This document shows positions 6,594 to 52,899 of a DNA stretch of 64,000 bases, in pieces. The stretch is from assembly GCF_030384885.1 (NCBI RefSeq), contig NZ_CP128613.1; one strand, 5' to 3'. Position numbers and translations under genes: made by a program. The DNA is from Escherichia coli (lineage in GTDB: Bacteria > Pseudomonadota > Gammaproteobacteria > Enterobacterales > Enterobacteriaceae). Each line of letters begins with the position of its first letter. Within the stretch, counting starts at the first letter, position 1. Below the pieces are notes generated by a model. That model did no database searches and had not been told where the DNA came from. It worked only from the letters and a program-made list of their open reading frames with translations.

Positions 6594-6623
6594 TGGCAGA
6601 GATGACTGCACTGCATCCATCGC

Positions 6624-6939: not shown

Positions 6940-7000
6940 TTTTAGTCTCCTGCTAAGAGTTCTAAAAATGTGCTTCCTTAAAATAGTTCATCATTTTCCC

Positions 7001-7213
7001 TTAATTCGAATAGCGTGCTTTTGCACGAATTTCCGATACGCGGGGACCATTATGATAACGTCGATGTCCACACATCCAACAAGAGCACATACAGGGAGTA
7101 CGAAAGCAAACACCTGATGCTTTTTTGCTTCCATCGCCTGCTGTGCGATAACGACGGCGGATTTTTTTTAATCGCGCCATATGATGGCGACGTTCAGCAC
7201 GATTACGGGTCAT
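7001..7213 (-). CDS. Hypothetical small basic Cys-rich protein, 70 aa (CxxxxCxCxCxxC)
   Basis: ATG at 7213 with a CAGGAG Shine-Dalgarno that lies inside repeat copy A; Arg/Lys-rich N-terminus and a Cys cluster. Could be a spurious GC-rich ORF. Confidence 0.35.
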   Translation of the reverse strand: MTRNRAERRHHMARLKKIRRRYRTAGDGSKKASGVCFRTPCMCSCWMCGHRRYHNGPRVSEIRAKARYSN

Positions 7214-7219
7214 AGCAAT

Positions 7220-7317
7220 ACTCCTGAGCAGGCGGCACTATGCCGCTTTCATAGGAGTTCTGAATGCTGGTGCTTTCTGTATGGCATAACCATGCCTCTA
7301 ACGGTTAAGTGCTTGCA
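7220..7317. repeat. 98-bp direct repeat, copy A
   Basis: About 94% identical to 9037-9134 in the same orientation; contains nested inverted repeats (ctcctg...caggag and gcggca...tgccgc). Overlaps the last codons of the HigA-like gene. Confidence 0.85.
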
Positions 7318-7588
7318 GCACATGTTGCGGATCATTGGCAATCGCTCGCAGCAAAGCCTTTGCAGGCCCGGTCGGTGAACGCCGCCCCTGCTCCCAGTTA
7401 CGCAACGTGTCTACGCTTACGGAAATAAGATCGGCAAATTTAGATTGTGACAACCCTGAAGCACGGCGTATTTCTTTGATTTTCATAGCATCAACTTCAA
7501 AAGTCCGTGAAGGCTGTCGCGTTCCTTCAATAATTTCATTCATCTGGGCCATGCTGTGAGTCAACCGCTCAAAAAGTGCCTTATCCAT
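7298..7588 (-). CDS. HTH (XRE-type) antitoxin, HigA-2-like
   Basis: 96-aa ORF with a helix-turn-helix segment (IKEIRRASGLSQSKFADLISVSVDTLRNWEQGRRSP), immediately downstream of and abutting the toxin-like ORF. Confidence 0.8.
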   Translation of the reverse strand: MDKALFERLTHSMAQMNEIIEGTRQPSRTFEVDAMKIKEIRRASGLSQSKFADLISVSVDTLRNWEQGRRSPTGPAKALLRAIANDPQHVLQALNR

Positions 7589-7900
7589 TTACCACCTCGT
7601 ATTTAACAACCGGAGCATTGCTTTTTCCTGGGGAGACAGATCATCTTTAATACCCTTACGATAAATAAGCAGTAATCTGATCTCATAATGTTTAACCTGA
7701 TGAAAGTAAATAACCCTGACACCAGCACGTTTCCCCTTTTCTCCTGAGACCCATCGAACCTTTCTTAACCCACCAGTTTCAGGTATTACCTCACCGTAGT
7801 CAGGATTCAAGGCCAGGAAAAACTGAAAACGACTGAATTCATCGTCATTCAGCAGTTTTTGAACATCTTCTGGGAAAATTTCCGTTTCGATGAAGAGTAT
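7589..7900 (-). CDS. HigB-2/Gp49-family (RelE-superfamily) toxin-like ORF; no canonical start codon upstream of the conserved N-terminus; possible pseudogene or non-canonical start
   Basis: Called ORF 7589..7810 starts at a TTG. The frame stays open upstream to a stop at 7943-7945 and encodes ...VILFIETEIFPEDVQKLLNDDEFSRFQFFLA..., which resembles this family's N-terminus, but with no ATG/GTG/TTG. The 7900 boundary (an ATA codon) is a guess. Confidence 0.6.
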   Translation of the reverse strand: MLFIETEIFPEDVQKLLNDDEFSRFQFFLALNPDYGEVIPETGGLRKVRWVSGEKGKRAGVRVIYFHQVKHYEIRLLLIYRKGIKDDLSPQEKAMLRLLNTRW

Positions 7901-8015
7901 AACTGTACGCCATTGGCTTAGAGTAACAATCCTTTTTGTACGTCATTGACGTACCCCTGAAACCACTAGCTTACTGATAGTGCTACAGCAAAACCACGTC
8001 TCTGCCGAGTTTGTC

Positions 8016-8041
8016 TTTACATTTGCGAGGCGCTTTCCAGA
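8016..8041 (-). promoter_or_regulatory. Conserved cis-element copy 3 (tttacatttgcgaggcgctttccaga) in the divergent region between the toxin gene and the esterase gene
   Basis: Matches the core of copies 1 and 2 with 2 mismatches over 21 bp; flanks diverge after ccaga. Confidence 0.4.
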
Positions 8042-8086
8042 TTTTCCACGCCCGTGAATTTCCCTGTATCCATCCAGTAAAAACGG

Positions 8087-18115: not shown

Positions 18116-19357
18116 ATGAAATGGTTTAACACCTTAAGTCACAACCGTTGGCTGGAACAGGAAACCGATCGCATCTTTGATTTTGGTAAAAATTCCGTAG
18201 TACCGACTGGCTTTGGCTGGTTAGGCAATAAAGGGCAAATCAAAGAAGAGATGGGCACCCATCTGTGGATCACCGCCCGTATGTTGCACGTGTATTCCGT
18301 TGCTGCGGCGATGGGTCGACCTGGCGCTTACTCGTTGGTTGATCATGGTATCAAAGCCATGAACGGCGCACTGCGCGATAAAAAATATGGCGGCTGGTAT
18401 GCCTGTGTCAATGACGAGGGCGTGGTGGATGCCTCCAAACAGGGCTATCAACATTTCTTTGCCCTGCTGGGTGCCGCCAGTGCCGTCACAACGGGTCACC
18501 CGGAAGCGCGTAAGCTGCTCGATTACACCATTGAAATTATCGAGAAATACTTCTGGAGCGAAGAAGAGCAGATGTGCCTGGAATCCTGGGACGAAGCCTT
18601 CAGCAAAACCGAAGAGTACCGCGGCGGCAATGCCAATATGCACGCGGTGGAAGCTTTCTTGATTGTTTATGACGTAACGCATGACAAAAAATGGCTGGAT
18701 CGCGCGATTCGCGTGGCTTCCGTCATTATCCACGACGTCGCCAGAAATAATCATTATCGCGTTAACGAGCACTTCGATACCCAGTGGAATCCGCTGCCGG
18801 ATTACAACAAAGATAACCCGGCGCACCGCTTCCGCGCATTCGGAGGCACGCCGGGCCACTGGATCGAATGGGGCCGTTTAATGCTGCATATCCACGCTGC
18901 CCTGGAAGCCCGTTGCGAACAGCCTCCGGCCTGGTTGCTAGAAGATGCCAAAGGTCTGTTCAACGCTACCGTGCGCGATGCCTGGGCGCCCGATGGTGCC
19001 GACGGGATTGTTTATACCGTTGACTGGGAAGGCAAACCGGTGGTCCGCGAACGTGTGCGTTGGCCTATCGTCGAAGCGATGGGTACAGCTTATGCGCTCT
19101 ACACCGTTACCGGCGATCGCCAGTACGAAACCTGGTATCAGACATGGTGGGACTACTGCATTAAGTACCTGATGGACTATGAAAATGGTTCCTGGTGGCA
19201 GGAGCTGGATGCGGACAATAAGGTCACCACCAAAGTCTGGGACGGTAAACAGGATATTTATCACCTGCTGCATTGCCTGGTGATCCCGCGTATCCCGTTA
19301 GCGCCAGGCCTGGCTCCGGCAGTTGCGGCGGGTCTGCTGGACGTGAATGCCAAATAA
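18116..19357 (+). CDS. yihS: Sulfoquinovose isomerase (N-acyl-glucosamine 2-epimerase fold)
   Basis: 413-aa ORF; conserved position. Confidence 0.9.
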
Positions 19358-19475
19358 CTGACTGAAAACCCTAACCCTCTCCCCAAAGGGGAGAGGGGAC
19401 CGCCCGGCGCAGTTTTTTGGTTTGACATCAGCCTCATGGGAGGCTGTATGCCGTTTTTTAATTAAGGTGCCTCGT

Positions 19476-20378
19476 ATGCAAATCACCAACATGCATTGCA
19501 GTGGACAAACCGTTTCACTTGCCGCGGGGGATTATCACGCGACTATCGTGACGGTTGGTGCTGGTCTGGCTGAATTAACTTTTCAGGGTTGTCATTTAGT
19601 CATCCCGCACAAACCCGAAGAGATGCCGCTGGCGCATCTGGGTAAAGTGCTTATTCCGTGGCCGAACCGGATCGCCAACGGCTGTTACCGCTATCGGGGA
19701 CAGGAATATCAGTTACCCATTAATGAACATAGTTCAAAAGCCGCTATTCACGGGCTGCTTGCCTGGCGAGACTGGCAAATTAGCGAATTAACCGCCACCA
19801 GCGTTACCCTGACAGCTTTTCTACCGCCCAGTTACGGCTATCCGTTTATGCTGGCTTCGCAGGTTGTTTATTCGCTCAATGCTCGCACGGGCCTTTCCGT
19901 TGAGATCGCAAGCCAGAATATTGGTACTGTGACCGCACCTTATGGTGTGGGTATTCATCCTTATTTAACCTGCAACTTAACATCTGTTGATGACTATCTT
20001 TTCCAGCTTCCGGCAGAACAGGTTTATGCCGTCGATGAGCACGCAAATCCGACAACGCTTCACCACGTTGATGAGCTGAATTTAAATTTCACGCGGGCGA
20101 CAAAAATAGCCGCGACAAAAATAGACCATACCTTTAAAACCGCTAATGATCTGTGGGAAATGACCATTACCCATCCACAGCAGGCACTTTCGGTGAGTCT
20201 TTGTTCCGATCAACCCTGGGTGCAGGTTTATAGCGGCGAAAAATTACAGCGTCAGGGACTGGCAATTGAACCTATGAGTTGCCCGCCTAACGCCTTTAAT
20301 TCCGGCACCGATTTATTATTACTGGAACCAGGAAAAACGCATCGCCTGTTTTTTAATATTCACGGGCAGCACAATTAA
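19476..20378 (+). CDS. yihR: Aldose-1-epimerase-family mutarotase
   Basis: Internal ATG at 19476 preceded by AAGGTG; ~300 aa. Confidence 0.85.
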   Translation: MQITNMHCSGQTVSLAAGDYHATIVTVGAGLAELTFQGCHLVIPHKPEEMPLAHLGKVLIPWPNRIANGCYRYRGQEYQLPINEHSSKAAIHGLLAWRDWQISELTATSVTLTAFLPPSYGYPFMLASQVVYSLNARTGLSVEIASQNIGTVTAPYGVGIHPYLTCNLTSVDDYLFQLPAEQVYAVDEHANPTTLHHVDELNLNFTRATKIAATKIDHTFKTANDLWEMTITHPQQALSVSLCSDQPWVQVYSGEKLQRQGLAIEPMSCPPNAFNSGTDLLLLEPGKTHRLFFNIHGQHN

Positions 20379-20438
20379 TTTCATTAAGAAAAAAACGAGA
20401 TCATTGTTTAGGGTTGTATTTACACAACAGGAAATATT

Positions 20439-21314
20439 ATGGACTTTTTTACGTTATTTTCGCCAGATGGGGCCATGCTGGAAACAAACGTGGTATGTAT
20501 CGTTATCGCGTTGATGTTTCTTTATACCTTTGTGGGGATATGCGCGGGATTTGGTGGCGGTTTAACCACCATGCCACTCGTCACGTTAATGCTCCCCGTA
20601 AAAATGGCAACACCACTTTCGGTAATTGTCGGCACCGCAACCGCCTTGTACGCCACCTGGCTATCACGCAAAGAAACGGATTGGCGCTCGGCAATGGTGC
20701 TGATTATTTTCTCATTTTTGGGAATACCCGTCGGTTTATATGCGCTGTCATATTTACCCGACCATTTTATGAAAGTGGGCTTAGGTGGATTTCTTATCCT
20801 CTACTCCTTTTACAGCATGTTTATTCCTCGCCTGCCGATTTATGACCGTAACTGGATCGCCGCACCTATCGGCGCAGTAGCTGGCGCATTAGGCGCGGCG
20901 TTCTCAACCAACGGGCCGCCGATGGTTATCTACGGGATGCTGCGTAACTTAGGTCCGGCGGCATTTCGCGGCACACTGAACGCCTTCTTCACCGCAAACA
21001 ACATCGCGGTGATCGGCGGGCTGGCGACCAGCGGAATTTTGACTGTTTCTATCTTTAAACTGGTGCTGTTTTGTATTCCCACCATGATCCTCGGTTCACT
21101 GATTGGACAATATGTGCATAAACGCATTTCGGTCAAAGTGTTTCGTGTGATGGTCTTTTTATTGTTGATTGCCTCCGGTTCTATGTTGATAAAAGGTGCG
21201 TTGGGAATTCCCGCCGCTGCCGCACTTCTGCCTCCGTTTACCTTGTTAGTTATACTGCAACTGGCATTTGGTAAAAAAGTGGCGGCAATCCGCCGAGCTG
21301 AAGAAAGTAAATAA
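20439..21314 (+). CDS. TauE/SafE-family (sulfite/sulfonate exporter-type) membrane permease
   Basis: 291-aa polytopic ORF with two halves, each carrying a Gly-rich TM motif (GFGGGLTTMP and GPPMVIYG); followed by the hairpin gcgggt...acccgc. Not part of the K-12 yih cluster as I recall it. Confidence 0.8.
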   Translation: MDFFTLFSPDGAMLETNVVCIVIALMFLYTFVGICAGFGGGLTTMPLVTLMLPVKMATPLSVIVGTATALYATWLSRKETDWRSAMVLIIFSFLGIPVGLYALSYLPDHFMKVGLGGFLILYSFYSMFIPRLPIYDRNWIAAPIGAVAGALGAAFSTNGPPMVIYGMLRNLGPAAFRGTLNAFFTANNIAVIGGLATSGILTVSIFKLVLFCIPTMILGSLIGQYVHKRISVKVFRVMVFLLLIASGSMLIKGALGIPAAAALLPPFTLLVILQLAFGKKVAAIRRAEESK

Positions 21315-21421
21315 TCACTTGCGCGGGTTTTAATTTATACCCGCACACATTCTTTGATTAATGAAACCTGTAATAACAGGATGGCATGAAATATTAGTTT
21401 TATACTCTATGGAGATTATTT

Positions 21422-23458
21422 ATGGATACGCCACGCCCACAGTTATTAGATTTTCAATTTCATCAGAATAACGACAGTTTTACTCTACGTTTTCAAGACC
21501 GTCTTATTTTAATCCATAGCAAAGATAATCCTTGCTTATCGATTGGCTCAGGTATAGCGGATATCGATATGTTCCGCGGTAATTTCAGCATTAAAGATAA
21601 ATTGCAGGAGAAGATTGCGCTGACCGACGCCATCGTCAGCCAGTCACCGGATGGCTGGTTAATCCATTTCTGCCGTGGTTCTGACATTAGCGCCACGCTG
21701 CATATCTCTACTGACGAACAAGGCCGTTTAGTGCTGAAACTGCAAAACGATGATCGTCACCATAACCGCATCTGGCTGCGTCTCGCCGCACAGCCGGAGG
21801 ACCATATCTACGGCTGCGGTGAACAGTTTTCCTATTTTGATCTACGCGGCAAACCGTTCCCACTGTGGACCAGCGAGCAGGGTGTTGGTCGCAACAAACA
21901 AAGCTATGTCACCTGGCAGGCCGACTGCAAAGAGAATGCGGGCGGTGATTACTACTGGACCTTTTTCCCGCAGCCAACCTTTGTCAGCACGCAGAAGTAT
22001 TACTGCCATGTTGATAACAGTTGCTATATGAACTTCGACTTTAGTGCCCCGGAATACCATGAACTGGCGCTGTGGGAAGACAAAGCAACGCTGCGTTTTG
22101 AATGTGCTGATACATACATCTCCCTGCTGGAAAAATTAACCGCACTGCTGGGACGCCAGCCAGAACTGCCCGACTGGATTTATGACGGAGTAACGCTCGG
22201 TATTCAGGGCGGGACGGAAGTGTGCCAGAAAAAACTGGACACCATGCGTAACGCGGGTGTGAAGGTTAACGGCATCTGGGCGCAGGACTGGTCCGGGATC
22301 CGTATGACCTCTTTTGGCAAACGTGTGATGTGGAACTGGAAGTGGAACAGTGAAAACTACCCACAGTTAGATTCCCGCATCAAGCAATGGAAAGAAGAAG
22401 GCGTGCAGTTCCTCGCCTACATCAACCCGTATGTTGCCAGCGATAAAGATCTCTGCGAAGAAGCGGCGCAACATGGCTATCTGGCAAAAGATGCCTCTGG
22501 CGGTGACTATCTGGTGGAATTTGGGGAGTTTTACGGCGGCGTTGTCGATCTCACTAATCCGGAAGCCTACGCCTGGTTCAAGGAAGTGATCAAAAAGAAC
22601 ATGATTGAACTCGGCTGCGGCGGCTGGATGGCTGACTTCGGCGAGTATCTGCCCACCGACACGTACCTGCATAACGGCGTTAGCGCCGAAATTATGCATA
22701 ACGCCTGGCCCGCACTGTGGGCGAAATGTAACTACGAAGCCCTTGAAGAAACGGGCAAGCTTGGCGAGATCCTTTTCTTTATGCGCGCCGGTTCTACCGG
22801 TAGCCAGAAATACTCCACCATGATGTGGGCGGGCGACCAGAACGTCGACTGGAGTCTCGACGATGGCCTGGCGTCGGTCGTCCCGGCAGCGCTGTCGCTG
22901 GCAATGACCGGACATGGTTTGCATCACAGTGACATTGGCGGTTATACCACCCTGTTTGAGATGAAGCGCAGCAAAGAGCTGCTGCTGCGCTGGTGTGATT
23001 TCAGCGCCTTCACGTCGATGATGCGCACCCACGAAGGCAACCGTCCGGGCGACAACTGGCAGTTTGACGGCGACGCGGAAACTATTGCCCATTTTGCCCG
23101 TATGACCACCGTCTTCACCACCCTGAAACCTTACCTGAAAGAGGCCGTCGCGCTGAATGCGAAGTCCGGCCTGCCGGTTATGCGCCCGCTGTTCCTGCAT
23201 TACGAAGACGATACACACACCTACACCCTGAAATATCAGTACCTGTTAGGCCGCGACATTCTGGTCGCTCCGGTGCATGAACAAGGCCGTAGCGACTGGA
23301 CGCTCTATCTGCCGGAGGATAACTGGGTCCACGCCTGGACAGGTGAAGCGTTCCGGGGCGGGGAAGTTACCGTTAATGCGCCCATCGGTAAACCGCCGGT
23401 CTTTTATCGCGCCGATAGCGAATGGGCGGCACTGTTCGCGTCGTTAAAAAGCATCTAA
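21422..23458 (+). CDS. yihQ: Sulfoquinovosidase (GH31)
   Basis: 678-aa ORF with a GH31-like catalytic region (WAQDWSG... and GIWAQDW context). Confidence 0.92.
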   Translation: MDTPRPQLLDFQFHQNNDSFTLRFQDRLILIHSKDNPCLSIGSGIADIDMFRGNFSIKDKLQEKIALTDAIVSQSPDGWLIHFCRGSDISATLHISTDEQGRLVLKLQNDDRHHNRIWLRLAAQPEDHIYGCGEQFSYFDLRGKPFPLWTSEQGVGRNKQSYVTWQADCKENAGGDYYWTFFPQPTFVSTQKYYCHVDNSCYMNFDFSAPEYHELALWEDKATLRFECADTYISLLEKLTALLGRQPELPDWIYDGVTLGIQGGTEVCQKKLDTMRNAGVKVNGIWAQDWSGIRMTSFGKRVMWNWKWNSENYPQLDSRIKQWKEEGVQFLAYINPYVASDKDLCEEAAQHGYLAKDASGGDYLVEFGEFYGGVVDLTNPEAYAWFKEVIKKNMIELGCGGWMADFGEYLPTDTYLHNGVSAEIMHNAWPALWAKCNYEALEETGKLGEILFFMRAGSTGSQKYSTMMWAGDQNVDWSLDDGLASVVPAALSLAMTGHGLHHSDIGGYTTLFEMKRSKELLLRWCDFSAFTSMMRTHEGNRPGDNWQFDGDAETIAHFARMTTVFTTLKPYLKEAVALNAKSGLPVMRPLFLHYEDDTHTYTLKYQYLLGRDILVAPVHEQGRSDWTLYLPEDNWVHAWTGEAFRGGEVTVNAPIGKPPVFYRADSEWAALFASLKSI

Positions 23459-23503
23459 TCACGTCCGCCCGTGGGGAAACTCACGGGCAAAGGGAGAACA
23501 ACG

Positions 23504-24889
23504 ATGAGTCACATCACAACGGAAGATCCGGCTACTTTACGTCTGCCCTTTAAAGAGAAACTCTCTTACGGTATCGGCGATCTGGCCTCTAACATCCTGC
23601 TGGATATCGGTACGCTTTATCTTTTGAAGTTTTATACCGACGTTCTGGGGCTGCCCGGCACCTATGGCGGTATTATCTTTTTGATCTCGAAATTCTTTAC
23701 CGCCTTTACCGATATGGGTACCGGCATCATGCTCGATTCCCGGCGTAAGATCGGTCCAAAAGGCAAATTCCGCCCTTTCATTTTGTACGCCTCATTCCCG
23801 GTCACTCTGCTGGCGATCGCCAACTTTGTCGGCACACCGTTTGATGTCACCGGTAAAACGGTGATGGCCACCATTCTGTTTATGCTTTACGGACTGTTTT
23901 TCAGCATGATGAACTGCTCCTACGGCGCAATGGTCCCCGCTATCACCAAAAACCCCAACGAACGCGCATCGCTGGCAGCATGGCGTCAGGGTGGCGCTAC
24001 ATTGGGCCTGCTGCTGTGTACGGTGGGATTCGTACCAGTTATGAATCTTATCGAAGGTAATCAGCAACTTGGCTATATCTTCGCCGCCACGCTATTTTCA
24101 CTGTTCGGCCTGCTGTTTATGTGGATCTGCTACTCGGGCGTGAAAGAGCGTTATGTCGAAACCCAACCTACCAATCCAGCGCAAAAGCCTGGCTTGTTGC
24201 AGTCTTTCCGCGCAATTGCGGGTAACCGCCCACTGTTCATTCTGTGTATTGCCAACCTCTGCACCTTAGGGGCGTTTAACGTCAAGCTCGCCATCCAGGT
24301 CTATTACACCCAGTACGTACTTAACGATCCCATCCTGTTGTCGTATATGGGATTTTTCAGCATGGGCTGTATTTTCATCGGCGTGTTCCTGATGCCTGGT
24401 GCAGTCAGACGTTTTGGTAAGAAGAAGGTCTATATCGGCGGCCTGCTGATTTGGGTGCTGGGCGATCTGCTCAACTATTTCTTCGGCGGCGGCTCGGTCA
24501 GTTTTGTGGCGTTCTCCTGCCTGGCATTCTTCGGCTCGGCGTTTGTTAACAGCCTGAACTGGGCACTGGTTTCCGACACCGTCGAGTACGGCGAGTGGCG
24601 CACCGGCGTTCGTTCGGAAGGTACGGTCTACACCGGCTTCACCTTCTTTCGCAAAGTATCTCAGGCGCTGGCAGGTTTCTTCCCAGGCTGGATGCTGACG
24701 CAAATCGGCTATGTGCCAAACGTGGCGCAGGCTGACCATACCATCGAAGGTTTACGCCAGCTGATCTTCATCTACCCAAGCGCACTGGCGGTAGTCACCA
24801 TTGTGGCGATGGGTTGCTTCTACAGTCTGAACGAGAAAATGTACGTCCGCATTGTTGAAGAAATAGAAGCCCGTAAACGCACGGCATAA
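23504..24889 (+). CDS. yihP: GPH-family (sugar:cation symporter) transporter
   Basis: Start chosen at the internal ATG after GGGAG; ~461 aa; paralogous to yihO. Confidence 0.88.
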   Translation: MSHITTEDPATLRLPFKEKLSYGIGDLASNILLDIGTLYLLKFYTDVLGLPGTYGGIIFLISKFFTAFTDMGTGIMLDSRRKIGPKGKFRPFILYASFPVTLLAIANFVGTPFDVTGKTVMATILFMLYGLFFSMMNCSYGAMVPAITKNPNERASLAAWRQGGATLGLLLCTVGFVPVMNLIEGNQQLGYIFAATLFSLFGLLFMWICYSGVKERYVETQPTNPAQKPGLLQSFRAIAGNRPLFILCIANLCTLGAFNVKLAIQVYYTQYVLNDPILLSYMGFFSMGCIFIGVFLMPGAVRRFGKKKVYIGGLLIWVLGDLLNYFFGGGSVSFVAFSCLAFFGSAFVNSLNWALVSDTVEYGEWRTGVRSEGTVYTGFTFFRKVSQALAGFFPGWMLTQIGYVPNVAQADHTIEGLRQLIFIYPSALAVVTIVAMGCFYSLNEKMYVRIVEEIEARKRTA

Positions 24890-24929
24890 ATAATAAACAA
24901 CGCCCTGCGGGGCGTTATAAGGAGTGATT

Positions 24930-26333
24930 ATGTCTGACCATAATCCACTGACATTAAAACTGAATCTGCGGGAAAAAATCGCTTATGGCATGGGCGACGT
25001 CGGTTCGAATTTAATGCTTAGCATCGGCACTCTGTATCTCCTCAAATTTTATACCGATGAATTAGGGATGCCTGCTTACTATGGCGGGATTATCTTTCTG
25101 GTGGCGAAATTCTTTACCGCGTTTACCGATATGCTCACCGGATTTTTACTCGACTCGCGAAAAAATATTGGGCCTAAAGGCAAATTTCGTCCCTTTATTT
25201 TATATGCAGCGGTTCCGGCGGCGTTAATTGCAACGCTCCAGTTTATCGCCACCACTTTTAGTTTGCCGATTAAAACGACGATTGCCACCGCGCTGTTTAT
25301 GATGTTTGGACTTTCATACAGTCTGATGAACTGCTCGTATGGCGCGATGATCCCAGCAATTACCAAAAACCCCAATGAGCGCGCGCAGCTTGCGGCTTAC
25401 CGCCAGGGTGGTGCAACCATAGGGCTATTGATTTGTACCGTAGCATTTATTCCATTGCAGTCGCTTTTTTCTGACTCCACTGTCGGTTATGCCTGCGCGG
25501 CACTGATGTTCTCCATTGGTGGCTTTATTTTTATGATGCTGTGCTACAGAGGCGTCAAAGAGCATTATGTGGACACGACGCCAACCGGACATAAAGCCAG
25601 TATTCTCAAATCTTTTTGCGCGATATTTCGTAATCCGCCATTGCTGGTTTTATGCATTGCTAACCTGTGTACCCTGGCGGCATTTAATATCAAACTGGCA
25701 ATTCAGGTCTATTACACCCAGTATGTGCTGAATGATATTAATTTATTGTCGTGGATGGGATTCTTCAGTATGGGATGCATCCTCATCGGCGTATTGCTGG
25801 TGCCATTAACTGTAAAATGTTTTGGTAAAAAACAGGTTTATTTAGCTGGCATGGTGCTGTGGGCGGTGGGGGATATCCTGAATTATTTCTGGGGCAGTAA
25901 CTCTTTCACTTTCGTCATGTTCTCTTGTGTCGCCTTTTTTGGTACGGCCTTTGTAAACAGCCTGAACTGGGCGCTGGTACCGGATACCGTAGATTATGGT
26001 GAATGGAAAACAGGTATACGTGCCGAAGGTTCTATTTATACCGGTTATACCTTCTTTCGTAAAATTTCAGCCGCACTTGCTGGCTTCTTGCCAGGCATTA
26101 TGCTGACGCAAATCGGTTATGTTCCCAACATCGCGCAAAGCGATGCAACATTACAGGGTTTGCGTCAGCTCATTTTTATTTGGCCTTGTGCGCTGGCGAT
26201 AATTGCTGCATTGACGATGGGATTCTTTTACACGCTCAATGAAAAACGTTTTGCGATGATTATTGAGGAAGTTAACCAACGCAAAAATAAAGAGATGGCG
26301 ACAGAAGAAAAAACGGCTTCCTTAACGTTATAA
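24930..26333 (+). CDS. yihO: GPH-family sulfoquinovose transporter
   Basis: ATG after AAGGAG; ~467 aa. Confidence 0.88.
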   Translation: MSDHNPLTLKLNLREKIAYGMGDVGSNLMLSIGTLYLLKFYTDELGMPAYYGGIIFLVAKFFTAFTDMLTGFLLDSRKNIGPKGKFRPFILYAAVPAALIATLQFIATTFSLPIKTTIATALFMMFGLSYSLMNCSYGAMIPAITKNPNERAQLAAYRQGGATIGLLICTVAFIPLQSLFSDSTVGYACAALMFSIGGFIFMMLCYRGVKEHYVDTTPTGHKASILKSFCAIFRNPPLLVLCIANLCTLAAFNIKLAIQVYYTQYVLNDINLLSWMGFFSMGCILIGVLLVPLTVKCFGKKQVYLAGMVLWAVGDILNYFWGSNSFTFVMFSCVAFFGTAFVNSLNWALVPDTVDYGEWKTGIRAEGSIYTGYTFFRKISAALAGFLPGIMLTQIGYVPNIAQSDATLQGLRQLIFIWPCALAIIAALTMGFFYTLNEKRFAMIIEEVNQRKNKEMATEEKTASLTL

Positions 26334-26399
26334 ATGTCAATAGCCGCTATTTCCATCCTGGTGGGTGGCGGCCTCCCTACGTTTAAAAATGGACTTATT

Positions 26400-27092
26400 A
26401 TGAAAAAGATTAATGCAATAATTCTATTATCCTCTCTGACCTCTGCCTCGGTATTTGCTGGCGCATACGTCGAAAACAGGGAGGCATATAATCTCGCCTC
26501 CGATCAGGGCGAGGTTATGCTACGTGTGGGTTATAACTTCGATATGGGCGCGGGTATTATGTTAACCAATACCTACACCTTTCAGCGAGAAGATGAACTA
26601 AAACATGGCTACAATGAAATTGAAGGTTGGTATCCGTTATTCAAACCAACTGATAAATTAACCATCCAGCCCGGTGGCTTAATTAATGATAAAAGCACCG
26701 GTTCCGGTGGTGCAGTATATCTGGACGTCAACTATAAATTTGTACCATGGTTTAATCTGACAGTGCGAAATCGCTATAACCATAATAACTACAGTTCAAC
26801 AGATTTGAACGGGGAGCTGGATAATAATGACACCTATGAAATTGGTACCTACTGGAATTTTAAAATCACCGAGAAATTCTCCTATACATTTGAGCCACAT
26901 TATTTTATACGCGTAAATGACTTTAATAGCAGCAATGGAAAAGATCATCATTGGGAAATCACTAATACCTTCCGTTACCGTATTAACGAAAACTGGCTCC
27001 CTTATTTCGAATTACGCTGGTTAGATCGTAATATAGAACCATACCACCGCGAGCAAAACCAGATTCGTATCGGGACGAAGTATTTCTTCTGA
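26400..27092 (+). CDS. ompL: Outer-membrane porin OmpL
   Basis: Signal peptide MKKINAIILLSSLTSASVFA; beta-barrel-like alternating pattern; C-terminal F. Confidence 0.85.
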   Translation: MKKINAIILLSSLTSASVFAGAYVENREAYNLASDQGEVMLRVGYNFDMGAGIMLTNTYTFQREDELKHGYNEIEGWYPLFKPTDKLTIQPGGLINDKSTGSGGAVYLDVNYKFVPWFNLTVRNRYNHNNYSSTDLNGELDNNDTYEIGTYWNFKITEKFSYTFEPHYFIRVNDFNSSNGKDHHWEITNTFRYRINENWLPYFELRWLDRNIEPYHREQNQIRIGTKYFF

Positions 27093-27100
27093 TGTGAAAC

Positions 27101-27178
<78 letters not shown>

Positions 27179-27182
27179 TTAA

Positions 27183-28448
27183 TCAAGCTTCAGCCGCCAA
27201 CATCTCTTTCTTACGTTGGCTAATTCGCTTAACCAGCATTACGGAAACCACCGCACCACAGAATGCGAAGCAGGCCATAATGCCAAACACGATTTTGTAG
27301 CCAATAATCCCCGGGTTTAAATCCAGAATGTAGCCATACAGACTGAAGCAGAACATCGCCGGGGCGTAACCGATAAAGCTACCCAACGCCATCGCCGCGC
27401 CTGTTTTATTTTCAGCAATTTTTGCTTCGCCGATAGGTGCAAAAAATACGGCTCGCTGTGTAAAGACTATCGCGCCAAAGCCTAATGTACAGGCCATCCC
27501 TAAATAGACCGGCATACTTTCGTGCGGCAGCATAATCAACAGTACGAGCGCAGCGGTACTGATGATAAAGGTGTAGCATAGATATTTACTCGGCGATTTC
27601 AGGATCTTATCTGAAATCATGCCACCAATCGGTCCACCGATCATTTTCAGACAGTATTGGTTAATGATGCCGTAAGCACCCACCAGCGCAACGGGCAGCA
27701 GATAGATGTTTTTCAGGAATGGAATGAAGAATGTCAAGCCACAGTAAACCGCGTAAACGAAGAAGACGTTGAAAGCGATAAGCCAGATGGTTTTATCTCT
27801 CAGCACCGAAGTCATACTGGTGTTTTGCGATGCTTCGTCTTCTTTTTTCACCTCCACGGACGGTGCCTCTTCTTTGTCATTGAGTACAAAGAAAATGATA
27901 ACGCCCACGGCAATCACAATAAGGGAATAGAACCAGATACCCGCTTTAAAGCCCAACAAGCCACTGCCAAACCAGGTAAATACTGCCAACGCAGAAAATG
28001 CCACCACAGTATCGACAATGCCACGCCCTGTTTCGAAGAAGCCAAACAAACGACCTTGTTGTTCGCTATTGCCCAGTCGACTTACCGACTTGAGCAAGAC
28101 AGGCCAGTTCATCATGTCGCAGGTAACGCCAAATAGCGCCCAGACAAAGAGGATGCCCCAATACCCCGGCATTGTCGTCAAATAAACACCCAGTAATCCC
28201 GTCGCAATGAGGGAGAATGACATGGTGTATCTGCGCGGTAGTTTATCGGCAAAATAAATAGACAGAAAAAAGCCTACTGTCGTGACAAATGAGTTTACCG
28301 ACATAGCATTACCAATTTGACCATTGGTCAAATGGAAATATTCCTGCATCGGGATATAAAACGCATCTTTCAACGACGGTAATTTATAAATTGTACCGCC
28401 ACACAATGTTAATAGACTAAATAACGCCCATTTCTTTTTCGTGAGCAT
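27183..28448 (-). CDS. yihN: MFS transporter
   Basis: 421-aa, 12-TM-like ORF. Confidence 0.88.
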   Translation of the reverse strand: MLTKKKWALFSLLTLCGGTIYKLPSLKDAFYIPMQEYFHLTNGQIGNAMSVNSFVTTVGFFLSIYFADKLPRRYTMSFSLIATGLLGVYLTTMPGYWGILFVWALFGVTCDMMNWPVLLKSVSRLGNSEQQGRLFGFFETGRGIVDTVVAFSALAVFTWFGSGLLGFKAGIWFYSLIVIAVGVIIFFVLNDKEEAPSVEVKKEDEASQNTSMTSVLRDKTIWLIAFNVFFVYAVYCGLTFFIPFLKNIYLLPVALVGAYGIINQYCLKMIGGPIGGMISDKILKSPSKYLCYTFIISTAALVLLIMLPHESMPVYLGMACTLGFGAIVFTQRAVFFAPIGEAKIAENKTGAAMALGSFIGYAPAMFCFSLYGYILDLNPGIIGYKIVFGIMACFAFCGAVVSVMLVKRISQRKKEMLAAEA

Positions 28449-28550
28449 AACATCCCCTAAGCGATTTTGAAAATCACTGTTCTAAAGGCAATAAGATACC
28501 GGCCATTCTTATGGAATGGTTTTTATTAACAGCGGATGAGTTAAAGCTTA

Positions 28551-29531
28551 TTAGTGGTTCAGAAGATGGCTTGCCTCTTGTTTGATTTGTTGTAGTACGT
28601 TACGCACATGATTTATCTGATTAATTGCATCTTCTTTTTCTTTACGTAACCGCGCATCCAGTAAATGATTTTCTGGCAGTGGTGTTTCACTCATCTGGCG
28701 ATAAGGGATCCACGGATTATCATCTTCGTCTTCAAAGCGGAACGCCGGAGCATAATAATCAACCTCTTCTTCCAGGCCATACGCTGTCACCTGCGGTTCT
28801 TCATCGCCAAGGCAGATAAGGTGTGTTAATAACTCTTTGAATGGCATATCACCCTGACCTGAAATACAGGCTTTATGGCCCAGGCCACCTTGTTCTTTAA
28901 CAATCAAGGCATCTTTGATATGGACCTGGGTAATATGTGGTGCCATCGTTTTTAAAGCGTCTATGGGATGTTCATTTGCATTGATCATGTTCGCAAAATC
29001 AAACAGTAAGGAAAGAGACTCCATCTCACTCCCTCTGACCAGCGACACCAGTTCATGGCTTTTTAAATCTTCATGCTGTTCGATCGTAAAGGTCAGGCCG
29101 CTGTCCTGATACGCTTCCCGCACATAGGCAATGTCGTTAGCGATGATCGATAATACGTCGCGCAAATTACCTTCATAACGCGGATAAAAACGCACTGACG
29201 ATGCCCCAGTTTTCAACGCAATGGCAACGGCTTCGTCAATAGATGCCTTATCTGAGGCACTGGTTTCAATATGAATATCAAGGTTCAGATGGCGGGCTTT
29301 ATCGCCAAAGGCAGAGAGTTCTTTATCTGCCATATTGCCCAAAGAAAAACGTTCGCCATCCAGAACATGAATTTTTACGCCTCGCAGATTATTTTCACTC
29401 GCAATATCAAGTAAATCAGCTGGCAATACTCTTTCCAGCCGCATATTTAAATGAAAAGCGTAGGCATGCAAATAAAGAGGAAGAGTATCGACACGTTGTA
29501 GAATCTTTCTTGCGTTATTTATTGTCACCAT
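28551..29531 (-). CDS. yihM: Sugar-phosphate isomerase/epimerase (xylose-isomerase-like TIM barrel)
   Basis: Start chosen at the internal ATG after AGGTG, giving ~326 aa. Confidence 0.85.
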   Translation of the reverse strand: MVTINNARKILQRVDTLPLYLHAYAFHLNMRLERVLPADLLDIASENNLRGVKIHVLDGERFSLGNMADKELSAFGDKARHLNLDIHIETSASDKASIDEAVAIALKTGASSVRFYPRYEGNLRDVLSIIANDIAYVREAYQDSGLTFTIEQHEDLKSHELVSLVRGSEMESLSLLFDFANMINANEHPIDALKTMAPHITQVHIKDALIVKEQGGLGHKACISGQGDMPFKELLTHLICLGDEEPQVTAYGLEEEVDYYAPAFRFEDEDDNPWIPYRQMSETPLPENHLLDARLRKEKEDAINQINHVRNVLQQIKQEASHLLNH

Positions 29532-29538
29532 AAAACAC

Positions 29539-30249
29539 CTACAGATTAATGATGAGATCCACGGCCTCAAATCGCCAATATTCAATATCTATCTGGACAA
29601 TATTGCCTTGCTGGTCAGCGCGATGTTTTTCAATTAAGATCGCAGGCATGCCCGCTGAACCGCCAAGAAATTTACTGATATCACCCGGCATTCTTACGGG
29701 TTTGAAAACCAGTTTTTTTACTACCGTCTCTTTTTGGTAGCATTTTTCCCAGACTGAAGAAAATGAGTGGTTTTCAAGTTGCTCTATAAAACCTGGGGCA
29801 ACTTCAGGATTAATATATGTTTCGTGATAGAAAACTTTATGTCCTTCCAGCGCCCCCCAGCCGGTAATGCGATAGAGTTCAGTTGATGGCGTCACTGCAA
29901 CCAGTGGCGCGAGCGTCTCGGGAATGTCGCTGGTACGGCTTTTCTCAGTAAAGCCCCAGGAAGGTTCCCGCCCTTGCTCAATTGCGGCCCGCTGAAAGCT
30001 CGCCGACAGCTCCGGACTGTAATTAAATCGCGGCTGAGTCACGAACCACCCTTTACGATCCTTACGGAAAATTTTGGATTCTGCCTCAAGGTTCAGCAAC
30101 GCCTGGCGTAACGTCATACGTTTAATGCCCAGCAACTCTCCCAGCTCTCTTTCTGAAGGGAGTTTTCCACCCGGCGTGGTGATGCCATCTTTCAACCACC
30201 GATCCAGTTTCTCTTTTGCATTTTCTACGGTGGATTGATTCTCCGCCAT
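29539..30249 (-). CDS. yihL: GntR-family transcriptional regulator
   Basis: N-terminal GntR HTH (ERELGELLGIKRMTLRQAL) plus UTRA-like C-terminal domain. Confidence 0.85.
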   Translation of the reverse strand: MAENQSTVENAKEKLDRWLKDGITTPGGKLPSERELGELLGIKRMTLRQALLNLEAESKIFRKDRKGWFVTQPRFNYSPELSASFQRAAIEQGREPSWGFTEKSRTSDIPETLAPLVAVTPSTELYRITGWGALEGHKVFYHETYINPEVAPGFIEQLENHSFSSVWEKCYQKETVVKKLVFKPVRMPGDISKFLGGSAGMPAILIEKHRADQQGNIVQIDIEYWRFEAVDLIINL

Positions 30250-30465
30250 TGTTTAATCCTTTTGGTTTAAACCAGATGAGGCATCTTACGCTTACGCCAA
30301 AAAAGAAAGCAATTAACAGCGTATGACTTTGCAGATAATTGTGACAAAGCTCTCTATTGACGTAACCACAAACTTATAAGGGAGATACTCGCACTGGTGA
30401 GAACTTACGACAGGCAAAAAAAAACCTGCCATCACTGGCAGGTTTTTTATGACTAAAAAACGAAA

Positions 30466-32289
30466 TTAATCGTCTTTCGGTGCGCGGTTGGCGCGACGAC
30501 GATCGTTTTCCGTCAGGTGACGTTTACGAATACGGATAGAGGTCGGAGTCACTTCTACCAGTTCGTCATCATCGATGAACTCCAGCGCTTGTTCCAGAGT
30601 CATGCGGATAGGCGGAACCAGAACAACGGCTTCGTCAGTACCGGAAGCACGCATGTTGGTCAGTTTCTTACCGGTCAGACAGTTTACAGTCAGGTCGTTA
30701 GAGCGGCTATGAATACCGATAATCTGACCTTCGTAAACTTCTGCACCGTGACCGAGGAACAGCTTACCGCGATCCTGCAGACCGAACAGCGCGAACGCGA
30801 CCGCTTTACCCTGACCGTTAGAGATCAGTACGCCGTTCTGACGCTGACCCACTTCACCCGGACGTACGTCGTCATAGTGGCTGAAGGTGGAGTACAACAG
30901 ACCCGTACCAGAGGTCATGGTCATGAACTCAGAACGGAAGCCAATCAGACCACGGCTTGGGATCACGTAGTCGAGACGTACGCGGCCTTTACCGTCTGGA
31001 TTCATGTTTTTCAGGTCGCCTTTACGTTCGCCCAGCGCCTGCATCACAGAACCCTGATGCTGTTCTTCAACGTCCAGCGTCACGTTTTCATACGGCTCTT
31101 GTTTACGACCGTCGATTTCACGGAAGATAACTTTCGGACGGGATACCGCCAGTTCGAAACCTTCACGACGCATGTTTTCGATCAGAACAGACAGGTGCAG
31201 TTCGCCACGACCAGAAACGCGGAACGCATCGGCGTCTTCAGTTTCTTCTACGCGCAGCGCAACGTTGTGTACCAGTTCTTTGTTCAGACGATCCAGAATC
31301 TGACGAGACGTTACGAACTTACCTTCTTTACCGCAGAACGGTGAGGTGTTAACGCAGAAGAACATAGAAACGGTCGGCTCATCAACGGAGAGTGCCGGCA
31401 GCGCTTCAACGTTTTGCGTGTCGCAAACGGTGTCAGAAATGTTCAGTTCGCCCAGGCCCGTGATCGCCACGATATCGCCAGCTTCCGCCAGATCGGTTTC
31501 GATACGTTCCAGACCGAGGTGGCCCAGCACTTTACCGACTTTCGCGTTGCGGGTTTTGCCTTCGCTATCGATGATAGTAACTTGCTGGTTCGGCTTCACT
31601 TTACCGCGCTTGATGCGGCCAATGCCGATAACGCCAACATAGCTGTTGTAATCGAGCTGAGAAATCTGCATCTGGAACGGACCGTCAAGGTCAACGTCCG
31701 GCGCAGGAACGTGGTCAACAATTGCCTGATACAGCGGGGTCATGTCTTCCGCCATATCTTCGTGGTCCAGACCGGCGATACCGTTCAGCGCAGAAGCGTA
31801 AACGATCGGGAAGTCCAGCTGCTCGTCGGTCGCGTCGAGGTTAACGAACAGATCGAATACCTGATCCACAACCCAATCAGGACGCGCGCCAGGGCGGTCA
31901 ACTTTGTTGATAACAACAATTGGCTTCAGGCCGTAAGCAAACGCTTTTTTGGTTACGAAGCGCGTTTGCGGCATCGGGCCGTCAAATGCGTCAACCACCA
32001 GCAGCACTGAGTCTACCATGGACATTACACGTTCAACTTCACCACCGAAGTCGGCGTGCCCCGGGGTATCAACGATGTTGATACGGTAATCATTCCATTT
32101 GATAGCGGTGTTTTTCGCGAGGATGGTAATCCCACGCTCTTTCTCCAAATCGTTGGAGTCCATCACGCGCTCTTGGGTTTCGGCACGAGAGTCGAACGTA
32201 CCAGATTGTTGGAGCAGCTTGTCTACCAGGGTGGTTTTACCATGGTCTACGTGCGCGATGATGGCGATATTACGCAATTTTTCGATCAC
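30466..32289 (-). CDS. typA: Ribosome-associated translational GTPase BipA/TypA
   Basis: G1 motif [10 protein letters not shown]3 DTPGH, NKVD; 607 aa. Confidence 0.95.

Positions 32290-49994: not shown

Positions 49995-52899
<2,905 letters not shown>

What the first reader, a model, noticed from the sequence alone, without database searches (positions are those of the whole stretch)
20379..21421. TauE/SafE-family permease gene inserted between yihR and yihQ in the sulfoquinovose catabolic cluster
A 291-aa polytopic protein with the two-repeat architecture and Gly-rich TM motifs of TauE/SafE anion exporters lies between the mutarotase and sulfoquinovosidase genes, same strand, with its own Shine-Dalgarno and a downstream hairpin. 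I do not recall such a gene in the K-12 yih cluster. TauE-type proteins export sulfite or sulfonates in other sulfonate pathways, so this could be a dedicated exporter for the pathway end-product (DHPS or sulfolactate) or for sulfite, implying a variant pathway output in this strain.
Basis: partly seen in the sequence, partly recalled or inferred. Interest (0 to 1): 0.5.

Follow-up and report, generated by a model that had tools for sequence, protein, structure and literature searches.

The report
Sulfonate exporter gene K-12 lost
A real, intact membrane-transporter gene sits between yihR and yihQ in this strain's sulfoquinovose-degradation cluster; it is an old, conserved part of such clusters in enteric bacteria that E. 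coli K-12 lacks, most likely exports the waste sulfonate DHPS, and is already annotated, so it is only mildly interesting.

Summary
ORF 20439-21314 (+), 291 aa, is a clear TauE/SafE (TSUP, PF01925) membrane protein between yihR and yihQ. K-12 has only a 198-bp spacer there.

- **Not a strain-specific insertion.** RefSeq already annotates it. It occurs in 1,295 of 5,426 complete E. coli genomes, including O157:H7 and ETEC H10407. It sits at the same position in Salmonella, E. whittamii, Citrobacter, Mangrovibacter and Superficieibacter, so K-12-type strains most likely lost it.
- **No changed pathway output.** The enzyme genes are the same as in K-12, with YihU present and no sulfolactaldehyde dehydrogenase or desulfonating enzyme.
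- **Tied to sulfoquinovose (SQ) catabolism.** All 34 loci examined outside E. coli that carry an ortholog (65-99% identity) are SQ clusters, either yih/sulfo-EMP or sulfo-ED-like.
- **A discrete, constrained clade.** The next relatives are at most 38% identical, and dN/dS is 0.01-0.05.
- **Transporter pattern.** Clusters whose only transporters are one sugar importer plus TauE point to export of the C3-sulfonate end product, most likely DHPS.

Transport itself is untested. TauE-type exporters are already predicted in other sulfoglycolysis clusters, so this is a new member of a known kind.

The parts
20439..21314 (+). TauE/SafE (TSUP) family membrane transporter gene, 291 aa, including the stop codon. 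Predicted C3-sulfonate (DHPS) exporter of the sulfoquinovose cluster.
   Evidence: ORF. PF01925 at E=2.4e-35. RefSeq WP_000345431.1, 'sulfite exporter TauE/SafE family protein'. dN/dS 0.01-0.05. AF2 model pLDDT 94.5.
20379..20438 (+). 60-nt yihR-TauE spacer, 27% GC, with Shine-Dalgarno AGGAAA at 20429-20434. No promoter-like site found.
   Evidence: Sequence. SD and ATG conserved in Escherichia and Salmonella. Promoter scan negative here.
21320..21347 (+). Hairpin after the TauE stop, with core stem GCGGGT/ACCCGC and a 10-nt loop. It has no U-run, so it is not a canonical intrinsic terminator.
   Evidence: Fold. Not called as a terminator. Stem mismatches are uncompensated in H10407 and E. whittamii, and Salmonella has a different hairpin at the same place.
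21367..21380 (.). Perfect palindrome CCTGTAATAACAGG, about 42-55 nt upstream of the yihQ start. It lies just right of the point (21364) where homology with K-12 resumes. Role unknown.
   Evidence: Conserved in Escherichia with and without TauE, and absent in Salmonella.
19476..20378 (+). yihR, sulfoquinovose mutarotase (aldose 1-epimerase), the upstream neighbour.
   Evidence: RefSeq annotation of the identical record.
21422..23458 (+). yihQ, sulfoquinovosidase, the downstream neighbour.
16302..19357 (+). yihU (sulfolactaldehyde reductase, 16302-17198), yihT (aldolase, 17222-18100) and yihS (isomerase, 18116-19357), upstream on the same strand.
   Evidence: YihU matches NF012005 at 601 bits.
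23504..27092 (+). yihP (23504-24889) and yihO (24930-26333), both GPH/MFS transporters, and ompL porin (26400-27092), downstream on the same strand. All are intact.
14419..16134 (-). csqR (14419-15204), the DeoR-type repressor, and yihV (15238-16134), the sulfofructose kinase. This is the divergent unit.

Best explanation
The gene encodes a TSUP/TauE-family inner-membrane transporter that is an ancestral, functional component of enterobacterial sulfoquinovose catabolic clusters.

Its most likely job is to export the C3-sulfonate end product. That product is 2,3-dihydroxypropane-1-sulfonate (DHPS), made from sulfolactaldehyde by YihU. The gene is probably co-transcribed with yihUTSR and yihQPO-ompL.

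The presence/absence difference within E. coli reflects loss of the gene in the K-12-type haplotype, not gain in this strain. In K-12-type strains YihP and/or housekeeping exporters would cover export.

**Shown here**
- Family membership, an intact gene and purifying selection.
- Strict co-localisation with SQ clusters of two different biochemical types.
- Distribution in E. coli and its relatives.

**Inferred**
- The direction of transport and the substrate.
- Co-transcription with the neighbouring yih genes.
- The polarity of the indel.
For: 1. **Family.** PF01925 at E=2.4e-35. Conserved Gly motifs. A confident two-repeat helical-bundle model.
2. **Functional constraint.** dN/dS is 0.012-0.051 between Escherichia alleles that differ by dS of 0.12-0.25. 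The protein is 75-89% identical across gammaproteobacterial genera, while the neighbouring YihR is only 51-73% identical.
3. **Exclusive SQ context.** All 34 non-E. coli loci with an ortholog are SQ clusters.
   - yihR-TauE-yihQ order: Salmonella, E. whittamii, Citrobacter sp., Mangrovibacter, Superficieibacter, UBA5654.
   - yihQ-TauE-yihP/O order: Klebsiella, Kluyvera, Pantoea, C. freundii, Atlantibacter, Lelliottia.
   - Last gene of a sulfo-ED-like operon: Hafnia, Leminorella, Mixta, Edwardsiella, Buttiauxella, Vibrio owensii, Aeromonas cavernicola, Craterilacuibacter.
4. **Shared step.** The two pathway types share only the entry substrate and the sulfolactaldehyde-derived end product. 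A transporter common to both must therefore handle one of these.
5. **Transporter bookkeeping.**
   - Most ED-like clusters have one SSF sugar symporter plus TauE and no yihQ homolog within 10 kb. Craterilacuibacter has one, and the Enterobacter ENT03 locus includes yihQ from an adjoining yih cluster. They therefore have one importer for one substrate, plus TauE.
   - The Klebsiella (L007) and uncultured Enterobacter (L037) yih clusters have YihO plus TauE and no YihP.
   - In K-12 a yihO deletion abolishes growth on SQ, so YihO is the importer (PMC6278857).
6. **Discrete clade.** The orthogroup is a single 50%-identity cluster and the next full-length relatives are at most 38% identical. Two of those relatives sit in unrelated contexts.
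7. **Precedent.** TauE-type proteins are the predicted sulfolactate/DHPS/isethionate exporters of other sulfoglycolysis clusters: SftE (PMC7491151), Arthrobacter (PMC8873060), SqwE (PMC12890257) and the sulfo-ED sulfolactate exporter (bioRxiv 10.1101/2019.12.17.868638).
8. **Loss rather than gain.** Same position in Salmonella, a tree congruent with hosts and cluster type, native-like GC, and no insertion sequence or target duplication.
Against: - No transport or expression data exist for this protein or, to my knowledge, for any close relative. The direction and the substrate rest on gene context only.
- K-12 lacks the gene yet excretes DHPS stoichiometrically (Denger 2014, as cited in PMC6278857). 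The gene is therefore dispensable.
- One review-type statement assigns TSUP proteins in SQ clusters to import (PMC8940949).
- The reductase in the ED-like clusters is only 30% identical to YihU and is below every NCBIfam cut-off. DHPS as the product of those clusters is itself inferred.
- The middle roughly 130 nt of the K-12 spacer shows no remnant of the gene. The deletion is inferred from phylogeny, not seen as a scar.
- No promoter or terminator evidence either way.
Confidence: 0.6

Rival explanations
1. It is an importer, a second uptake route for sulfoquinovose or a sulfoquinovosyl glycoside, rather than an exporter.
For: The founding TSUP member TsaS is described as a 4-toluenesulfonate uptake component. 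PMC8940949 states that TauE/TSUP transporters in sulfo-EMP and sulfo-ED clusters 'import SQ and its glycosides'. SQ is the other compound shared by the EMP and ED cluster types.
Against: Every cluster already encodes a sugar-type importer, GPH YihO/YihP or SSF. Most ED-like clusters lack a sulfoquinovosidase gene, so they have only one substrate to import but still carry SSF plus TauE. If TauE imports, these clusters have no exporter at all. Other SQ-cluster TauE homologs are generally assigned to product export.
Confidence: 0.15
2. It is a sulfite exporter, as the database name says, removing sulfite released from a sulfonate.
For: The family name and the RefSeq product name. TauE of Cupriavidus necator was proposed as a sulfite exporter (reference listed in PMC8873060).
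Against: No desulfonating enzyme (sulfo-lyase, Xsc, or SQ mono- or dioxygenase) is encoded in the window cluster or in any of the orthologous clusters examined. The sulfo-EMP pathway yields DHPS, not sulfite. The name is inherited from the Pfam family, and no NCBIfam equivalog supports it.
Confidence: 0.05
3. It exports a different or broader set of small sulfonates, for example sulfolactate formed by adventitious oxidation of sulfolactaldehyde, or toxic sulfolactaldehyde itself. In that case it acts as a safety valve, not as the main DHPS route.
For: Related SQ-cluster TauE proteins are assigned to sulfolactate export. Klebsiella sp. ABR11 produces both sulfolactate and DHPS from SQ. K-12 exports DHPS without this gene.
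Against: This clade always co-occurs with a YihU or YihU-like reductase gene. A sulfolactaldehyde dehydrogenase is not conserved in these clusters: an aldehyde dehydrogenase flanks the Hafnia locus but not Leminorella. Sulfolactate-exporting homologs would be among relatives that are at most 38% identical.
Confidence: 0.15
4. It is a recently acquired passenger gene, or a decaying one with no role in the pathway.
For: It is absent from half of all E. coli genomes. An IS1-truncated copy exists in strain BE2-5.
Against: dN/dS of 0.01-0.05, full length in all orthologs, conserved SD and start codon, native GC content, and conserved synteny across at least 20 genera.
Confidence: 0.03

Closest known systems
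Predicted TauE/TSUP-type sulfonate exporters of other sulfoglycolysis clusters: the sulfolactate exporter of the P. putida SQ1 and R. leguminosarum sulfo-ED operons, SftE of the sulfo-TAL pathway, SqwE of the sulfo-TK pathway, and the TauE permease of Arthrobacter AK04 sulfo-EMP.
   Same: Same Pfam family (PF01925). Same kind of genomic position, inside an SQ catabolic operon. Same proposed logic, namely exporting the C2/C3 sulfonate that the cell cannot desulfonate.
   Different: This protein belongs to a separate, tight clade. Identity is 65-99% within the clade and at most 38% to every other full-length 50%-cluster representative. The clade pairs with a reductase (DHPS-forming) rather than a sulfolactaldehyde dehydrogenase. 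In Enterobacterales, Vibrio and Aeromonas it carries an extra C-terminal helix at residues 259-290. I could not fetch those named proteins to measure identity directly.
TauE of Cupriavidus necator H16 and SafE, the founding members that give the family its 'sulfite exporter TauE/SafE' name.
   Same: Family membership, glycine-rich motifs, and a helical core of about 240-250 aa.
   Different: Those proteins act in taurine or sulfoacetate pathways that release sulfite or export sulfoacetate. No sulfite-releasing enzyme is present here. Their roles were also assigned largely from gene context.
YihP of E. coli K-12, the GPH/MFS protein conventionally drawn as the DHPS exporter.
   Same: Encoded in the same cluster and assigned the same proposed role.
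   Different: An unrelated fold and family. The YihP assignment is described only as 'most likely'. YihP and TauE are each missing from some otherwise complete clusters: K-12 lacks TauE, and Klebsiella L007 and L037 lack YihP. That pattern fits redundancy, or YihP being a second importer.
The long and short yih cassette variants of E. coli (Kaznadzey et al. 2025, PMC12608037).
   Same: The same locus and the same theme of structural polymorphism and recombination at yih.
   Different: That study describes two forms (ompL-yihOPQRSTUVW and yihTUVW) and does not mention the TauE gene. The window represents a third common form, long plus TauE.

Membership tests
TauE/SafE = TSUP family (Pfam PF01925; TC 2.A.102) | Significant match to the family profile above the curated threshold | tested here: met
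   122.8 bits against a gathering score of 32.6, E=2.4e-35, profile positions 2-235 of 237. 5,651 relatives at E<=1e-3 in the representative library.
TauE/SafE = TSUP family (Pfam PF01925; TC 2.A.102) | Polytopic membrane protein built from two homologous 4-TMS repeat units | tested here: inconclusive
   The AF2 model (pLDDT 94.5) shows two equivalent units of long-short-long-long-long helices at 16-128 and 138-255. Sequence self-alignment and hhalign of the halves (E=0.029, probability 1.7%, though in register) are not significant. No solved structure of the family exists for comparison.
TauE/SafE = TSUP family (Pfam PF01925; TC 2.A.102) | Conserved glycine-rich motifs at the start of each repeat | tested here: met
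   G37 and G39 are invariant. F38, G145, G149, G152, G159, P160 and P161 are at least 90% conserved in 93 sequences.
TauE/SafE = TSUP family (Pfam PF01925; TC 2.A.102) | Transport of sulfite or an organosulfonate | not testable with these tools
   Requires transport assays or mutant phenotypes.
Sulfoquinovose (yih / sulfo-EMP) catabolic gene cluster component | Encoded inside the cluster, on the same strand, with short spacers to pathway genes | tested here: met
   60 nt after yihR and 107 nt before yihQ, on the same strand as yihUTSR and yihQPO-ompL.
Sulfoquinovose (yih / sulfo-EMP) catabolic gene cluster component | Association with the cluster conserved across species | tested here: met
   34 of 34 non-E. 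coli loci are SQ clusters: 20 yih-type and 14 sulfo-ED-like. In E. coli, all annotated copies seen lie between yihR and yihQ.
Sulfoquinovose (yih / sulfo-EMP) catabolic gene cluster component | Induced by sulfoquinovose / controlled by CsqR | not tested
   No expression data were found for TauE-positive strains. The published K-12 work cannot address it. The promoter and terminator scan was uninformative.
Dedicated DHPS exporter | Loss slows DHPS efflux or raises intracellular DHPS; the protein transports DHPS | not testable with these tools
   Inference from transporter bookkeeping only.
   GC is 48.7% against 48.5% for yihR. The only flanking repeat is a weak 14/17 inverted repeat. The gene is present at the same site in Salmonella, E. 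whittamii and Citrobacter.

The most novel reading that the evidence does not exclude
The TauE protein, not YihP, is the ancestral dedicated DHPS exporter of enterobacterial sulfoglycolysis. YihO and YihP would then both be importers, for example for SQ and for sulfoquinovosyl-glycerol. On this reading the K-12 model cluster is a degenerate form that relies on non-dedicated efflux. The TauE presence/absence polymorphism in E. coli (24% with, about 50% long cassette without) would then affect how fast strains can run sulfoglycolysis and feed DHPS to sulfidogenic gut bacteria.
Probability: 0.35. Interest if true: 0.45.

Novelty: new member of a known kind. Interest (0 to 1): 0.3.

Why it matters
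Sulfoquinovose breakdown by Enterobacteriaceae supplies DHPS to gut and environmental sulfonate respirers that produce H2S. The export step is the least characterised part of the pathway.

Nearly all mechanistic work uses K-12, which lacks this gene. The textbook assignment 'YihP = DHPS exporter' has never been tested.

A conserved SQ-specific TSUP clade is present in Salmonella, O157:H7, ETEC and many plant- or gut-associated enterics. It gives a concrete candidate exporter to test.

The scope is limited. The gene is already annotated, the kind of transporter is already expected in such clusters, and the gene is dispensable in K-12.

Tried and rejected
1. **Remnant of the gene in K-12.** MAFFT placed bits of the K-12 spacer against the gene. 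Sensitive blastn found no significant match for the middle roughly 130 nt, only the last 57 nt of the spacer (window 21364-21421) and a weaker match near the yihR stop. The deletion-scar idea was dropped and the polarity argument rests on phylogeny.
2. **Internal repeat by sequence.** Neither self-alignment nor hhalign was significant. Only the predicted structure shows the repeat.
3. **Solved structures.** None were found by sequence or by fold. The best hit was BacA/UppP at TM about 0.45, which is not convincing.
4. **Terminator or promoter around the gene.** Nothing usable. The hairpin is not conserved by compensatory changes.
5. **Rfam.** No RNA family in or near the interval.
6. **Literature on the Salmonella or O157 gene.** Searches on locus-tag guesses and on yihU-yshA found nothing on this gene. 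Denger 2014 and Felux 2015 are not held.
7. **A cryptic-clade (E. whittamii) origin of the window allele.** The protein is 99% identical, but dS is 0.24, the same as to ordinary E. coli alleles. This was not pursued.
8. **Nearest non-orthologous TSUP relatives (P0127, P0131).** These were checked for SQ context and have none.
Full report
**1. What is in the sequence**

The interval 20379-21421 is exactly the gap between the stop codon of yihR and the start codon of yihQ. It contains one long ORF, 20439-21314 on the + strand, ATG start, 291 aa.

An AGGAAA Shine-Dalgarno sits at 20429-20434. A hairpin follows the stop codon, with core stem 21323-21328/21339-21344.

The protein matches Pfam PF01925 (TauE) at E=2.4e-35, far above the curated threshold, over residues 23-248. 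No NCBIfam equivalog model matches.

The window is 100% identical to E. coli 2013C-4282 (NZ_CP027579.1). There RefSeq already annotates the gene as 'sulfite exporter TauE/SafE family protein', WP_000345431.1. Its neighbours are csqR and yihV on the minus strand, and yihU-T-S-R and yihQ-P-O-ompL on the plus strand.

**2. Protein anatomy**

An AlphaFold2 model built on a 93-sequence alignment is very confident, with mean pLDDT 94.5 and pTM 0.90. It shows two equivalent units, each of a long helix, a short helix and three long helices. The units span residues 16-128 and 138-255. An extra C-terminal helix follows at 259-290.

The glycine-rich motifs sit at the equivalent place in each unit: GICAGFGGG at 33-41 and GAVAGALGA at 145-153. 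G37 and G39 are invariant, and G145/G149/G152 are at least 90% conserved.

Sequence alone does not demonstrate the duplication. Self-alignment scores the same as shuffles. hhalign of the two halves gives an in-register but non-significant hit.

No member of the family has a solved structure, whether searched by sequence or by fold.

The C-terminal helix and its basic tail are specific to the Enterobacterales, Vibrio and Aeromonas part of the clade. The Craterilacuibacter ortholog ends at the equivalent of residue about 257. All relatives at 38% identity or below are about 240 aa long, with matches ending near residue 250.

**3. Is it a strain-specific insertion? No**

- Among 5,426 complete E. 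coli genomes, 4,001 have the yihR-yihQ region.
- 1,295 of the 5,426 (24%) carry the gene, always on the chromosome. They include O157:H7, O55:H7 and ETEC H10407.
- About 2,700 genomes have the K-12 form.

K-12 has a 198-bp spacer. Only the spacer's last 57 nt (window 21364-21421), plus a short weaker stretch next to the yihR stop, align with the window. The middle roughly 130 nt has no detectable similarity to the gene.

Outside E. coli, the same yihR-TauE-yihQ order occurs in five other genera plus one unnamed Enterobacteriaceae genome bin:
- Salmonella enterica, in two subspecies;
- Escherichia whittamii;
- Citrobacter sp. wls619;
- Mangrovibacter;
- Superficieibacter;
- the unnamed Enterobacteriaceae genome bin UBA5654.

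A neighbour-joining tree of the TauE proteins groups them by cluster type and gene position. Within the yihR-TauE-yihQ group, Escherichia is sister to Salmonella and Citrobacter. The tree has no bootstrap support, so it is indicative only.

The gene's GC content (48.7%) equals that of yihR (48.5%) and lies within the range of the cluster. No insertion sequence or target duplication flanks it, only a weak 14/17 inverted repeat.

The simplest history is presence in the common ancestor of Escherichia and Salmonella, followed by loss in the K-12-type haplotype. That haplotype is shared nearly unchanged by strains with different flanking alleles (K-12 and strain 26a).

The locus is unusually divergent between haplotypes. 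It is 93-97% identical to K-12 across yih and drops to 87-90% just right of the indel. This fits old haplotypes shuffled by recombination, as Kaznadzey et al. 2025 proposed for the long and short cassettes. That paper does not mention this gene.

**4. Is it functional?**

Yes, by every sequence criterion.
- dN/dS is 0.012-0.051 between Escherichia alleles separated by dS of 0.12-0.25.
- Length, start codon and SD are conserved from Escherichia to Salmonella.
- The protein is 75-89% identical across gammaproteobacterial genera, whereas the adjacent YihR is only 51-73% identical.

**5. What does it do?**

The strongest evidence is context. I examined 34 loci outside E. coli that encode an ortholog at 65-99% identity. 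Twenty-eight were GTDB species representatives. Six more came from Salmonella (two loci), Hafnia (two loci), Klebsiella and Leminorella. Every one is a sulfoquinovose catabolic cluster.

Twenty are yih/sulfo-EMP clusters. Fourteen are sulfo-ED-like operons with this gene content:
- a LacI regulator and an SSF symporter;
- an IlvD/Edd-type dehydratase, an HpcH-type aldolase and a mutarotase;
- an SMP-30-type lactonase and an SDR dehydrogenase;
- a beta-hydroxyacid-dehydrogenase-family reductase;
- TauE as the last gene.

Published surveys already list Hafnia and Leminorella among carriers of sulfo-ED clusters (PMC7491151).

In Enterobacter ENT03 the two cluster types abut and share one TauE gene. 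In C. amalonaticus and Enterobacter 10-1, yih genes lie next to the ED-like cluster.

The orthogroup is a single 50%-identity cluster among 1.84 billion representatives. The next full-length relatives fall to at most 38% identity. Two of these that I checked sit in unrelated neighbourhoods. This is therefore an SQ-specific clade of the TSUP family.

The EMP and ED routes share only their substrate (SQ) and the fate of sulfolactaldehyde. A transporter common to both should handle one end of the pathway. Three observations favour the exit.
- Each cluster already has a sugar-type importer, GPH YihO/YihP or SSF.
- Most ED-like clusters have no sulfoquinovosidase gene within 10 kb. Craterilacuibacter has one, and in Enterobacter ENT03 an adjoining yih cluster supplies one. 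Those without it have a single substrate to import, yet carry two transporters.
- The Klebsiella (L007) and uncultured Enterobacter (L037) yih clusters have only YihO plus TauE. In K-12, YihO is the importer whose deletion abolishes growth on SQ (PMC6278857).

Every cluster has YihU or a YihU-like reductase. A sulfolactaldehyde dehydrogenase is not conserved in them. DHPS is therefore the most likely cargo.

There are caveats. The ED-cluster reductase is only 30% identical to YihU and is below all curated cut-offs. No transport or expression experiment exists for this protein. K-12 excretes DHPS without it.

The name 'sulfite exporter' is inherited from the Pfam family. No sulfite-releasing enzyme is encoded in any of these clusters.

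**6. Transcription**

The spacers are short, at 60 and 107 nt. All genes from yihU to ompL are co-oriented. The consensus scan found no promoter in front of TauE or yihQ and no canonical terminator after TauE.

The hairpin after the gene lacks a U-run and accumulates uncompensated mismatches among Escherichia alleles. Salmonella has an unrelated hairpin at the same place.

Co-transcription with the neighbouring yih genes is therefore plausible but unproven.

**7. Relation to what is known**

TauE/TSUP-type exporters are a recurring, predicted feature of sulfoglycolysis clusters:
- the sulfolactate exporter of the sulfo-ED operons;
- SftE, 'predicted SL/DHPS exporter';
- SqwE;
- the Arthrobacter TauE permease.

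The open literature I could search does not discuss this gene in the E. coli or Salmonella yih cluster. That includes a 2025 paper devoted to yih cassette variation. The field still draws YihP as the 'most likely' DHPS exporter.

**8. Verdict**

This is a real, intact, already-annotated gene. It belongs to a known kind, forms an uncharacterised clade, and is common in E. coli and its relatives.

The 'insertion' and 'variant output' parts of the interpretation are not supported. The 'dedicated end-product exporter' part is well supported by comparative genomics but untested.

Interest is modest at 0.3. The most novel reading still open is that TauE, not YihP, is the ancestral DHPS exporter and that K-12 is a degenerate model. 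I put that at roughly 0.35 probability.

Noticed in passing
window 21367-21380: Perfect palindrome CCTGTAATAACAGG about 42-55 nt upstream of yihQ, immediately right of the indel boundary. It is conserved in Escherichia haplotypes with and without TauE. Strain 26a has a 6-nt internal duplication of it, and Salmonella and Citrobacter lack it. It could be an operator or an RNA hairpin for yihQ.
   Followed up: partly
window 20379-20395 and 21350-21366: An imperfect inverted repeat (17 nt, 14/17 complementary) brackets the TauE module almost exactly at the two boundaries of homology with K-12. Both arms are AT-rich, so it may be chance.
   Followed up: no
window 11000-31000 (yih locus and flanks): The locus is 93-97% identical to K-12, falling to 87-90% in the first roughly 600 bp right of the indel. 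Only 13-14 of 5,426 complete E. coli genomes are at least 99% identical to the window here. dS of the TauE allele against other E. coli alleles is about 0.24. This looks like a deep, rare haplotype or a divergent Escherichia lineage.
   Followed up: partly
window 5992-10955: A roughly 5-kb segment that did not align to the corresponding K-12 region, next to fabY. It holds an HTH_3/MqsA-like antitoxin ORF (7298-7588, minus strand), an Abhydrolase_3 esterase (8087-9037, plus strand) and a 637-aa ORF with no Pfam match (9206-11119, minus strand). Salmonella has HigB toxin, HTH_3 and Abhydrolase_3 genes at the same side of fabY.
   Followed up: partly
L005/L006 (Hafnia), L008/L025 (Leminorella), L021, L030, L032, L034, L035, L038, L040: The enterobacterial, Vibrio and Aeromonas sulfo-ED-like clusters carry a beta-hydroxyacid-dehydrogenase-family reductase in the operon. 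It is 30% identical to YihU and below all NCBIfam cut-offs. They carry no conserved sulfolactaldehyde dehydrogenase, and most have no sulfoquinovosidase gene nearby. This suggests a DHPS-forming variant of sulfo-ED that uses free SQ.
   Followed up: partly
L026 (Enterobacter sp. ENT03), L024 (C. amalonaticus), L039 (Enterobacter sp. 10-1): In Enterobacter ENT03 a sulfo-ED-like cluster and a sulfo-EMP (yih) cluster lie side by side with a single TauE gene between them. In L024 and L039, yih genes (yihT/U/V and csqR, or csqR and ompL) flank the ED-like cluster.
   Followed up: no
L007 (Klebsiella quasipneumoniae), L037 (uncultured Enterobacter): These yih clusters have TauE after yihQ and only one GPH transporter (YihO-like), with no yihP or ompL. 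This is the complement of the K-12 state, which has YihP and no TauE.
   Followed up: partly
window 20439-21314, residues 256-291; L038 9965-10774: The extra C-terminal helix and basic tail (KKVAAIRRAEESK) are specific to the gammaproteobacterial orthologs. The betaproteobacterial Craterilacuibacter ortholog (65% identity) and all more distant TSUP relatives lack them.
   Followed up: partly
L009 (E. coli BE2-5): An independent inactivation: IS1A has truncated the TauE gene after 90 nt and deleted through to a partial MFS transporter gene.
   Followed up: no
window 32371-54887: Ordinary landmarks found by Rfam: an rRNA operon (16S 53346-54887, 23S 49995-52899, 5S 49784-49899, two tRNAs), CsrC (39296-39549), Spot 42 (40578-40696), and ES222, naRNA4 and ES036.
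   Followed up: no
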